A DNA stretch of 64,000 bases from an uncultured Gammaproteobacteria bacterium. GTDB lineage: Bacteria > Pseudomonadota > Gammaproteobacteria > Xanthomonadales > Xanthomonadaceae. Position 1 is the stretch's first letter, and each line of letters opens with the position of its first letter. The stretch is taken from positions 133,410 through 197,409 of the forward strand of contig CAWAMC010000001.1 in assembly GCA_963783035.1 (NCBI GenBank), in the 5' to 3' direction. Below the pieces are notes generated by a model. That model saw only the letters and a list, made by a program, of their open reading frames with translations, searched no databases and was not told the DNA's origin. Of the stretch, positions 22,182-23,913 are shown one piece after another. A program made the position numbers and the translations under genes.

Positions 22182-22630
22182 GATAAGACCTCACAGCCTC
22201 AGTGAGATCTTCCTTCTCCCCGCATCGCGGGGAGAAGGTGGCGCGCAGCGACGGATGAGGGGCGAACGCCGCCGCATTGCATCGCGTGAAGCGCGCCCCT
22301 CTCCCGGCCTTCGGCCACCCTCTCCCCGCGCGATGCGCAGGGAGAGGGGACAGCAGCGAGTAGCGAGTCGCCCGGATAAGGCCTCACAGCCTTAGTGAGA
22401 TATTCCTTCTCCCCGCATCGCGGGGGCGAAGAGGTGCGCTTGCGAGGTATCGCCTCGCGCACCGATGAGCGCCCGAGCGCGATGCGCGAGGGCCGGACGA
22501 AGGTGGCGCGCAGCGACGGATGAGGGGCGAACGCCGCCGCATTGCATCGCGTGAAGCGCCCCTCTCCCGGCCTTCGGCCACCCTCTCCCCGCGCGATGCG
22601 CAGGGAGAGGGAACAGCCGCGAGCGAGTAG
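22182..22630. repeat. Tandem duplicated composite REP unit (about 190 bp x2; second copy carries an ~70-bp insertion)
   Basis: Repeated GATAAG.CCTCACAGCCT.AGTGAGAT..TCCTTCTCCCCGCATCGCGGGG...CCCTCTCCCCGCGCGATGCGCAGGGAGAGGG. Each copy is followed by a GTAG/GTCG-CCCGG REP start. Confidence 0.8.
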
Positions 22631-22645
22631 ATACTGTTATCCAGA

Positions 22646-23617
22646 TCAAGCTCCGTGAAGTGCTGGATTGAAGGGCTGGCCTGATTTGATAACGCCGAAG
22701 GCGACCTGAGCCAACTTTCGCATCATGGCGCCGATGATGAGTTTGGGCGGTTTTCCATTCGCTTGAAGCCGTCGGCGGAAGACTTTGCCCCACGCCGTTT
22801 TGTAAATGGCAACCATCGCCGGCATGTACAGCGCTCGTCGCAGGAAAGCATGCCCTACTTTGGATAATCGCGGCTTGGCCCTGACGCTGGTGCCGGATTC
22901 GTGATGTCGAGGATTGAGCCCGGCAAAAGCGACGAACTGACGCGCGCTATCGAAGCGCTGCTGGCACAGATCGAAGGCAAGCACGATAGCGATGGTGCGG
23001 TCGCCCAAGCCGGGAATGGAATCGAGCAGCTCGCGTTTACCACGCAAATCAGGATCGTCATCAAGGGTCTGGGTAATGGCCTGTTCGATGCGTTTGATTT
23101 CTTCGCCCAACCAGTCCAGATGCGTATGCAGACTGTCGCGAACCGATTCGCGGGCGACTTGGATTCGGTTCTTTTCCTGAGTCTGCATGTCCACCAGCGA
23201 TTGATGCCGCAACACCAACGCCCGTAATTGACGCGCGCTGGCCGACGGCGCTGTCCACCCAGCGGGCTGCTTTTCTCGACAGAAGTTCGCCAGAACACGA
23301 GCATCAACCGCATCGGTTTTGTTGCGCAGCCCCAGTGAGTGGCCATGCGCTTTGGACAACGCCGGATTGATCACCGAGACCACATGTCCCATATCGGCCA
23401 GATATTCGGCGGCAGCTTCCCAGTACACGCCGGTCGCTTCCATGCACACGTGCACCGGCACTTCGGCATATCGAGCTAACCACGCGGAGAGCTCTGCAAA
23501 CCCCGTCGCGGTGTTCGCAAAGACCTTGTTGCGATATTTGTCATTCAGAGCCAAGGCGCAGTCCAGCTTAGCTTTGGAGACATCAATGCCCAGATACAAT
23601 TTGGTTGTCATCATCAT
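22646..23617 (-). CDS. IS110 DEDD recombinase/transposase
   Basis: GIDVSK, CMEATG and KTDAVDA (DEDD RuvC-like domain); SIPGLG, AFAGLNP..HESG and LRRALYMPA. Confidence 0.96.
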
Positions 23618-23619
23618 GG

Positions 23620-23790
23620 CTTGCGCAATCCACCTTGTGAATGCAGGCTGCCGACTAGGTCGGGCCGAAGATACTGTTCGATCTCTCGCAAGTTGAAGCT
23701 GAATTCCCGGTGCGCTATCTACGTTGCGGCCTCGAAAGCAAAGCCCGGGTACGGCATCCGAGAATCCATTTACCCAAGAGCGACTTGGGC
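23620..23790 (-). ncRNA. Predicted IS110 bridge RNA
   Basis: Minus strand: 5' hairpin ATTTGCCCAAG..CTTGGGTAAAT; target loop with ACCCGGGCT and CGTAG; donor loop with ACAGTATCT and CACAAG. Confidence 0.85.
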
Positions 23791-23913
23791 AAATTCATAA
23801 TACAAGCCCGGGTAAGGCCGCAGGCTGCACCCGGGGCTCGATCATGAATCGCCGTGGAAACTTCGCTGGATACGTTTATCCCTAGCACGCGCTGTGCGCT
23901 TACCTTGTTGACT

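What the first reader, a model, noticed from the sequence alone, without database searches (positions are those of the whole stretch)
22629..23806. Complete IS621-like bridge-recombinase element with readable guides programmed to the host REP
Joining the element ends gives the circle junction ACAGTAT-CT-TGTAT, the same donor sequence I recall for IS621. The junction assembles a sigma70-like promoter, TTGATC-17 bp-TATTAT (-35 at 22644-22649, overlapping the stop codon; -10 at 23797-23802). The non-coding end carries donor guides ACAGTATCT (23669-23677) and CACAAG (23634-23639). It also carries target guides ACCCGGGCT (23742-23750) and CGTAG (23719-23723). These match the interrupted REP (ACCCGGG-CT-AC). 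This looks like a natural orthologue with the same donor but a retargeted target loop.
Basis: partly seen in the sequence, partly recalled or inferred. Interest (0 to 1): 0.75.

Follow-up and report, generated by a model that had tools for sequence, protein, structure and literature searches.

The report
IS621-like bridge-RNA insertion sequence
This is an intact mobile element of the well-studied IS110/IS621 "bridge recombinase" type whose guide RNA is set to insert it next to a short repeated hairpin of its host; it is a clean natural example but of a kind that is already known and catalogued.

Summary
Window 22629-23806 (minus strand) is a complete 1178-bp IS110-family element. It has four copies in this genome, three of them identical. 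Its 323-aa recombinase matches the solved ISCro4 and IS621 enzymes (E 3e-119 and 1e-115) and keeps all five catalytic residues.

The 189-nt left end encodes a bridge RNA. A covariance model built only from IS621 and eight other orthologues hits the 64-kb window once, at 23624-23769(-), with 103 bits and E 1e-27.

- **Target guide:** ACCCGGGCU equals the left flank plus core at three of the four copies, with one mismatch at the fourth.
- **Target site:** all four copies sit at the 3' arm of a REP hairpin, at ACCCGGG-CT-AC.
- **Donor:** the joined ends read ACAGTAT-CT-TGTAT, the IS621 donor as listed in Durrant 2024.
- **Promoter:** joining the ends also creates TTGATC-17-TATTAT, a split promoter kept in all ten elements compared.
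- **Retargeting:** in relatives, including one 93% identical in protein, the target guide changes with the local flank while the donor stays fixed.

The published dataset already lists another orthologue with this same target. RNA expression, circle formation and recombination were not shown here.

The parts
22629..23806 (-). Complete IS110-family element, 1178 bp counted with a CT core at each end
   Evidence: Four copies in the genome share exactly this span, three of them at 100% identity; the flanks diverge outside it.
22646..23617 (-). Bridge recombinase gene, 323 aa (RuvC-like DEDD domain plus Tnp domain with catalytic Ser)
   Evidence: Pfam PF01548 (E 8e-26) and PF02371 (E 2e-21). PDB matches: ISCro4 9t56 at E 3e-119 and IS621 8wt6 at E 1e-115. 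D12, E60, D102, D105 and S241 are present.
23618..23790 (-). Predicted bridge RNA, about 173 nt. The start is inferred 7 nt after the -10 by analogy with IS621.
   Evidence: A covariance model built without this sequence hits 23624-23769 at 103.2 bits, E 1e-27, the only hit in the window. The start and end of the RNA are inferred, not measured.
23772..23790 (-). 5' stem-loop GCCCAAG-UCGCU-CUUGGGU
   Evidence: Present in the minimum-free-energy fold. IS621 and the orthologues have a hairpin at the same place.
23701..23767 (-). Target-binding loop with its 10-bp closing stem GGAUUCUCGG/CCGGGAAUUC
   Evidence: In RNAalifold the closing stem has compensatory changes at 7 of its 9 aligned pairs across 11 sequences.
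23742..23750 (-). Left target guide ACCCGGGCU (7 nt plus core)
   Evidence: Equals left flank plus core at 3 of 4 copies, 8 of 9 at the fourth. It follows the conserved AUGCCGU as in IS621. It co-varies with the flank in orthologues.
23719..23725 (-). Right target guide AACGUAG (predicts CT-ACGTT)
   Evidence: CT-AC matches at all four copies; ACGTT and ACGTC are found at two copies.
23717..23718 (-). Handshake dinucleotide AU of the target-binding loop
   Evidence: Same letters and position as A81/U82 of IS621. It can pair with donor T7/A6.
23627..23683 (-). Donor-binding loop with closing stem GAUC/GAUU and inner hairpin
   Evidence: Consensus fold and model alignment.
23669..23677 (-). Left donor guide ACAGUAUCU
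   Evidence: Identical to the last 9 nt of the right end (22629-22637).
23634..23638 (-). Right donor guide ACAAG (pairs with CTTGT of the left end)
   Evidence: CAAGGU is invariant in all 11 aligned elements.
23632..23633 (-). Handshake dinucleotide GU of the donor-binding loop
   Evidence: Homologous to G166/U167 of IS621. Here the G faces target G7, a mismatch.
22644..22649 (-). -35 half (TTGATC) of the promoter formed only in the circle
   Evidence: TTGNNN (TTGA in nine of the ten elements, TTGCAG in IS621) is at the same distance in nine of the ten elements compared (shifted with its -10 in L012).
23797..23802 (-). -10 half (TATTAT)
   Evidence: Conserved in IS621 and most orthologues.
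23807..23835 (-). Host REP hairpin CCCGGGT-15 nt-ACCCGGG; its 3' arm is the left target
   Evidence: An uninterrupted paralogue with the same loop lies at G000:C4:1198949 and continues CTACGTC.
22627..22628 (-). Right target AC, directly after the right-end CT core
   Evidence: AC follows the element at all four copies.

Best explanation
This is an intact and probably recently active insertion sequence of the IS110 family, in the IS621/ISCro4 clade. It consists of a serine/DEDD bridge recombinase gene preceded by a bridge RNA of about 173 nt.

By analogy with IS621, the cycle would run as follows. Excision joins the two ends into a circle. The junction ACAGTAT-CT-TGTAT is the donor site, and it also brings a -35 (TTGATC) from the right end to 17 bp from a -10 (TATTAT) in the left end, which switches on the bridge RNA. 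One loop of the RNA pairs with the donor junction (ACAGUAUCU and ACAAG). The other loop pairs with the target ACCCGGG-CT-AC(GTT), using ACCCGGGCU and AACGUAG. That target is the 3' arm and tail of a host REP hairpin. A recombinase tetramer then exchanges strands at the CT core and inserts the element.

Shown here: the anatomy, homology, guide-to-site matches, copy number, target census and covariation. Inferred: transcription, circle formation and catalysis.
For: **Recombinase.** Pfam DEDD_Tnp_IS110 and Transposase_20 both match. The protein aligns end to end with the solved ISCro4 and IS621 enzymes at E 3e-119 and 1e-115. D12, E60, D102, D105 and S241 are conserved.

**Activity.** There are four copies, three of them 100% identical, each bounded by CT.

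**Bridge RNA.** A covariance model built from IS621 plus eight orthologues, without this sequence, gives one hit in 64 kb. It lies at 23624-23769(-), 103 bits, E 1e-27, over the full model length. In the consensus fold, 18 of 33 pairs show compensatory changes.

**Guides.** The left target guide equals flank plus core at 3 of 4 copies and 8 of 9 at the fourth. AC follows the core at all four. The left donor guide equals the right end 9 of 9.

**Natural retargeting.** In L006, L007, L008, L011, L012, L014, L101 (93% aa identity) and L103/L104 (74%), the left target guide equals each element's own flank. The donor stays ACAGTATCT/TGTAT in all of them.

**Target.** There are 17 free ACCCGGGCTAC sites against about 4.5 expected. 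With the leading T, there are 15 against 0.9 expected. Fourteen of the 17 lie at REP hairpins.

**Promoter.** A split -35/-10 is kept in all ten elements compared, 17 bp apart in nine of them (shifted in L012).

**Published mechanism and IS621 sequences.** PMC11208160, PMC11208158 and PMC13626964.
Against: No RNA, circle or recombination data exist for this element. The first base of the donor-loop handshake (G, 23633) faces G7 of the target, whereas in IS621 and the other orthologues whose targets I read it faces C7. The published work links this pairing to strand-exchange efficiency. At the window's own copy the right target matches the guide only over CT-AC. The target loop's inner hairpin is weaker than in the orthologues, with one broken pair, and the free-RNA fold buries part of the left target guide.
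Confidence: 0.88

Rival explanations
1. RNA pairing is necessary but not sufficient. The REP hairpin immediately 5' of the site is itself read, by shape, as a second requirement, as reported for ISPpu10. The REP association would then not be explained by the 11-nt guide match alone.
For: All four insertions lie directly after the 3' arm of a hairpin. The close relatives L101 and L103/L104 also sit after hairpin arms. The ISPpu10 preprint reports a requirement for a target 5' stem-loop.
Against: In IS621, the nearest characterised relative, short reprogrammed targets without REP context work (PMC11208160). ISPpu10 is described as lacking the 5' stem-loop that this element has. The hairpin link may simply follow from the guide matching a REP arm. 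Three of the 17 exact sites lie outside hairpins, but none of those is occupied, so the genome cannot decide.
Confidence: 0.15
2. The element is a relic that is no longer mobile. The guide-like matches are inherited from an active ancestor, and the RNA is not made or not used.
For: There is no expression or circle evidence. The donor-loop handshake is mismatched. The element was not found in 42 other species of the genus, so there is no population evidence of ongoing movement. The C2 copy has a damaged right target guide.
Against: Three copies are identical over 1178 bp at different loci. The reading frame and all catalytic residues are intact. The guides match the sites perfectly, and the promoter halves are intact.
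Confidence: 0.06
3. The guide matches are chance similarities in a non-coding leader. The element chooses REP sites through the protein alone.
For: None specific. Before 2024 this was the default view of IS110 targeting.
Against: A 9-nt match placed at the homologous position behind AUGCCGU, repeated with different sequences in nine other elements that each match their own flank, cannot be chance. The model hit has E 1e-27.
Confidence: 0.01

Closest known systems
IS621 of Escherichia coli (bridge recombinase and bridge RNA; Durrant et al. 2024, Hiraizumi et al. 2024)
   Same: Same gene order, with a long non-coding left end and then the recombinase. The recombinases align over nearly their full length (E 1e-115). 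Same catalytic residues and same CT core. The donor ACAGTAT-CT-TGTAT is identical, as are 20 nt across the junction. Same split promoter with TATTAT at -10. Same RNA layout (5' hairpin, target loop, donor loop), with AUGCCGU before the left target guide and GUAGAU after the right one. Both target a REP.
   Different: The target is ACCCGGG-CT-AC instead of ATCGGGC-CT-AC (3 of 7 left positions differ). The left donor guide pairs with both core bases (ACAGUAUCU versus ACAGUAUCA). The right donor guide has A where IS621 has the wobble G161. The -35 is TTGATC versus TTGCAG. The donor-loop handshake G faces G7 rather than C7. The element is 1178 versus 1281 bp. The host is a 62% G+C environmental bacterium, and there is no DNA-level match in E. 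coli.
ISCro4 (solved structure 9t56)
   Same: Best-scoring solved relative of the recombinase (E 3e-119), with the same domains.
   Different: Its RNA and target were not compared here because no DNA of it was at hand.
Unnamed IS621-clade orthologue in Durrant 2024 Supplementary Data, with target guide ACCCGGGCT
   Same: Same left target guide, same listed natural targets (CCTTACCCGGGCTAC...) and same donor.
   Different: The rest of its RNA is much closer to IS621 (for example the 5' hairpin CCAGAAAGAA..., and right target region ACAGUAGAU). It is therefore a separate lineage that converged on, or shares, the same REP target.
ISPpu9 / ISPpu10 of Pseudomonas putida (REP-targeting IS110 elements)
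   Same: IS110-family elements that insert into REP sequences in several copies per genome.
   Different: ISPpu10 is reported to lack the 5' stem-loop and to need a target hairpin. No sequence comparison was made here.

Membership tests
IS110 family insertion sequence (IS110 group) | N-terminal RuvC-like DEDD domain and C-terminal Tnp domain | tested here: met
   PF01548 at 91 bits (cut-off 29) and PF02371 at 76.5 bits (cut-off 21.3).
IS110 family insertion sequence (IS110 group) | Catalytic D, E, D, D and Ser (IS621 D11, E60, D102, D105, S241) | tested here: met
   D12, E60, D102, D105 and S241 align with those of IS621 chain 8wt6. D105 and S241 are named in PMC11208158; the other three numbers are from my own knowledge of that paper.
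IS110 family insertion sequence (IS110 group) | No terminal inverted repeats; the same dinucleotide core at both ends; long non-coding left end upstream of the gene | tested here: met
   CT is at both ends of all four copies. The left end is 189 nt and the right end 17 nt after the stop. The ends CTTGTAT... and ...ACAGTATCT are not inverted repeats.
Bridge RNA of the IS621 type | Sequence and structure match to known bridge RNAs | tested here: met
   Model R1, built from IS621 plus eight orthologues with this sequence left out, gives 103.2 bits, E 1e-27, full length, a single hit in the window. Rfam 15 gave no bridge-RNA hit here.
Bridge RNA of the IS621 type | Two internal loops closed by stems that co-vary | tested here: met
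   RNAalifold on 11 sequences finds compensatory changes at 18 of 33 pairs, strongest in the closing stem of the target loop.
Bridge RNA of the IS621 type | Target loop guides match the natural insertion site | tested here: met
   The left guide matches 9 of 9 at three copies and 8 of 9 at one. The right guide matches CT-AC at all copies and up to CT-ACGTT at one.
Bridge RNA of the IS621 type | Donor loop guides match the joined element ends | tested here: met
   ACAGUAUCU equals the right end. ACAAG is complementary to CTTGT of the left end.
Bridge RNA of the IS621 type | Guides co-vary with targets across natural relatives while the scaffold is kept | tested here: met
   Nine other elements each match their own flank with a different guide.
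Bridge RNA of the IS621 type | Promoter rebuilt across the circle junction | tested here: met
   The sequence reads TTGATC-17-TATTAT, and the pattern is kept in all ten elements compared. Promoter activity was not measured.
Bridge RNA of the IS621 type | Handshake bases pair with position 7 of the other substrate (an efficiency feature, not a defining one) | tested here: inconclusive
   The target-loop AU can pair with donor T7/A6. The donor-loop G faces target G7, so it is not paired, unlike IS621 and the other orthologues whose targets I read.
Bridge RNA of the IS621 type | The RNA is made, binds the recombinase and directs recombination | not testable with these tools
   No RNA run holds the stretch. 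Assembled contigs cannot show it.
REP (repetitive extragenic palindrome) as target | Short imperfect palindrome repeated many times, often in inverted pairs | tested here: met
   A loose pattern for CCCGGGT-N(8-20)-ACCCGGG gives 59 hits over both strands. Fourteen continue CTAC. Several form inverted doublets. Whether they lie between genes, and any link to a RAYT transposase, was not tested.

The most novel reading that the evidence does not exclude
The element may be a natural case in which bridge recombination is tuned by features beyond the four guides. Two such features are a donor-loop handshake base that cannot pair with its own target (G opposite G7) and an obligatory hairpin just 5' of the site. 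Either could set a low, REP-restricted transposition rate. The C2 copy, whose right target guide is altered (CGUAG to CAUCG), would then be moved only in trans by the RNA of the other copies.
Probability: 0.15. Interest if true: 0.4.

Novelty: new member of a known kind. Interest (0 to 1): 0.25.

Why it matters
It adds one well-documented natural orthologue to the bridge-recombinase family. The record comprises four copies with exact ends and a small, countable set of free target sites in the same genome. It also includes very close relatives (93% and 74% protein identity) whose target guides have been rewritten to match other hosts' REPs. That makes a neat illustration of how fast the target loop is reprogrammed in nature while the donor loop stays fixed. 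It could also be tried as a further enzyme for genome engineering. It does not change what is known about the mechanism.

Tried and rejected
- **Rfam 15:** no bridge-RNA hit. The only hits were spurious sub-threshold microRNA matches to neighbouring repeat hairpins.
- **blastn against 5,426 E. coli genomes:** the element gave no match. IS621 was instead fetched with a 64-nt stretch taken from the paper's supplement.
- **Empty-site search in 30 relatives with window 21600-24800:** no orthologous empty site was found. The flanks are themselves repeat families and the relatives are too divergent. The paralogous free REP sites were used instead.
- **Sequencing runs:** no RNA holder is listed, and all runs are kept as contigs.
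- **Four runs laid on 22300-24100:** no contig joins 22629 to 23806, so no circle junction was seen. Contigs drop rare forms, so this says nothing either way. One 1187-nt contig from a biofilter metagenome spans the element (22627-23813), overhanging its ends by 2 and 7 nt. A contig of another run leaves the left end into a different REP.
- **Permuted-motif control:** the control for the 11-mer count was weak (19 of 200 permutations reach 17). The REP claim therefore rests on the conserved hairpin context and on the 12-mer count, not on that number.
- **The count of structure pairs:** not run. The pair counts from fold_alignment were used instead.
- **P0009:** its contig had no DNA available.

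Full report
**What is there.** On the minus strand, window 22629-23806 holds a 323-aa reading frame (22646-23617). It is preceded by 189 non-coding nucleotides and followed by 17. The protein carries the two Pfam domains of IS110-family transposases, DEDD_Tnp_IS110 and Transposase_20. It aligns over residues 8-321 with the two solved bridge recombinases, ISCro4 (9t56, E 3e-119) and IS621 (8wt6, E 1e-115). The residues aligned with the IS621 catalytic set are all present: D12, E60, D102, D105 and S241.

**Ends and copies.** The genome holding the window is 3.92 Mb in 8 contigs, 61.7% G+C and 88.7% complete. It has four copies of exactly this 1178-bp span. Three are identical and the fourth (contig C2) has 15 differences. 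Read on the element strand, each copy is bounded as (C/T)TAC(C/T)CGGG | CT-TGTATTAT...ATAACAGTAT-CT | AC.... Similarity between copies stops at the two CT dinucleotides.

All are at the stated coordinates. Joining the ends gives ACAGTAT-CT-TGTAT. The supplement of Durrant et al. 2024 (PMC11208160) lists the wild-type IS621 bridge RNA with donor specificity ACAGTATCTTGTAT and target specificity ATCGGGCCTAC. The recalled donor is therefore right, and 20 nt across the junction are identical in the two elements. The joined ends also read TTGATC, a 17-nt spacer, then TATTAT. The TTGATC overlaps the TGA stop. I extracted the joined ends of IS621 and eight further orthologues. Every one has TTGNNN (TTGA in eight of the nine, TTGCAG in IS621), at the same distance from TATTAT or a near variant in eight of the nine and shifted with its -10 in L012. 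The split promoter is thus a conserved feature of the clade and not a chance pair of hexamers.

**The RNA.** I fetched an annotated IS621 copy from E. coli (L085) and about ten orthologues of 53-61% protein identity from genome contigs. Their left ends align with this one. The consensus fold has a closing stem, an inner hairpin and unpaired guide segments for each of two loops. Compensatory changes occur at 18 of 33 pairs. As an independent test I built a covariance model from IS621 and eight orthologues, leaving this sequence out. It hits the 64-kb window once, at 23624-23769 on the minus strand, over the full model, at 103 bits and E 1e-27. In the whole genome it finds the four copies plus two weak hits that belong to a different IS110 element. 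The single-sequence fold is only modestly better than shuffles (z -2.0), so the case rests on comparison rather than on folding energy.

**Guides.**
- **Left target guide:** behind the conserved AUGCCGU sits ACCCGGGCU. It equals the left flank plus core at three copies, and the fourth flank is ACTCGGG.
- **Right target guide:** AACGUAG predicts CT-ACGTT. The four right flanks are ACGTT, ACGTC, ACTCG (the window copy) and ACTCT. CT-AC is always met and the extension only sometimes. This mirrors IS621, where the basic right-side pairing is 4 bp and extension is optional.
- **Left donor guide:** ACAGUAUCU equals the right end 9 of 9.
- **Right donor guide:** ACAAG pairs with CTTGT.
- **Handshake bases:** the two bases after the right target guide (AU) match the IS621 handshake bases A81/U82 and can pair with donor T7/A6. 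The two after the right donor guide (GU) match G166/U167. Here that G faces G7 of the target, not C7 as in IS621 and in the other orthologues whose targets I read. This is the one departure from the published pairing scheme.

**Natural covariation.** In L006, L007, L008, L011, L012 and L014 the seven guide bases differ from element to element, and each equals its own left flank. Two very close relatives from metagenome contigs show the same pattern.
- **L101:** its recombinase is 93% identical, and its guide AUGCGCC sits behind the flank ...TTATGCGCC.
- **L103 and L104:** at 74% identity, the guide GCGCACC sits behind ...GAAGCGCACC at two different loci.

In both relatives the flank is the 3' arm of a local hairpin repeat. 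Throughout all these elements the donor guides and element ends stay ACAGTATCT and CTTGTAT. The target loop is therefore rewritten quickly to suit each host's repeat, while the donor loop is fixed by the element's own ends.

**The target.** ACCCGGGCTAC occurs 17 times unoccupied in the genome, against about 4.5 expected from base composition. With the preceding T it occurs 15 times against about 0.9 expected. Fourteen of the 17 lie at the end of hairpins of the form CCCGGGT, 9-17 nt, ACCCGGG, and several of these form inverted doublets. One uninterrupted paralogue has the same loop as the REP beside the window copy and continues CTACGTC. Two free sites lie in the window itself, at 15619-15695. 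The target is thus a REP-like family of modest size.

**Distribution.** No close relative of the recombinase was found in the 42 other species genomes of the genus; the best match had 45% identity. Proteins of 81-95% identity occur on short metagenome contigs. Near-identical DNA occurs in biofilter, freshwater and sediment metagenomes. One such contig spans the element (22627-23813), running 2 and 7 nt past its two ends, and another leaves the left end into a different REP. This pattern fits a recently acquired, recently active element.

**Mechanism.** The most likely mechanism is the one established for IS621. The recombinase-RNA complex excises the element at low efficiency into a circle. 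The circle junction forms the promoter and the donor site. The bispecific RNA then holds donor and target in a tetramer, and strands are exchanged at CT through a Holliday junction (PMC11208160, PMC11208158, PMC13626964). None of these steps was observed for this element. No RNA data exist for it, and contigs cannot reveal rare circles.

**Novelty.** The kind is known in detail. NCBI already names relatives 'IS110 family RNA-guided transposase'. Durrant's covariation dataset contains another orthologue with the identical target guide ACCCGGGCU and natural targets CCTTACCCGGGCTAC.... This is therefore a new member of a known kind. The unpaired handshake base and the variant C2 copy are the only points that might repay an experiment.

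Noticed in passing
G000:C2:46649-47826 (locus L004), fourth copy of the element: This copy differs at 15 positions. Two of them change the right target guide from CGUAG to CAUCG, which would break pairing with the second core base and with the C of the right-target AC. The reading frame is intact but carries 8 amino-acid changes against 4 silent ones. It may be a decaying copy that could move only with RNA from the other copies.
   Followed up: partly
window 15619-15695: An inverted REP doublet carries two perfect free targets (TACCCGGGCTACG on each strand) about 7 kb from the element.
   Followed up: partly
G000:C5:371035-372150 and G000:C7:200000-201091: A second, distant IS110-family element (recombinase 31% identical) is present in two copies. 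Its own left end begins CTTGTAAG and contains ACAGUUGCC and UACAAGG guide-like segments. The bridge-RNA model hits it only weakly (25.6 bits).
   Followed up: partly
window 22200-22617 and 23957-24080: The element sits among other repeat families. One is a roughly 400-bp array of CCCTCTCCC/GGGAGAGGG hairpin units, with copies at 78-86% identity elsewhere in this genome and shorter matches of about 74-96% across the genus. The other is a hairpin repeat, GGCGAAAGCCGG...CCGGCTTTCGCC. These produced the spurious microRNA hits in Rfam.
   Followed up: no
L101:440-700 (metagenome contig; recombinase 93% identical): This is a nearly identical element whose target guide is AUGCGCC instead of ACCCGGG, and it is inserted behind a different hairpin repeat. 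It shows very recent natural retargeting, with matching compensatory changes in the closing stem of the target loop.
   Followed up: partly
L009 (G+C-rich gammaproteobacterial MAG): One copy of an orthologue sits at ACCCGCC-CT although its guide reads TTGCGCC (4 of 7 matched). A sister copy in the same genome (L014) sits at a perfect TTGCGCC site. This is possibly a natural off-target insertion.
   Followed up: no
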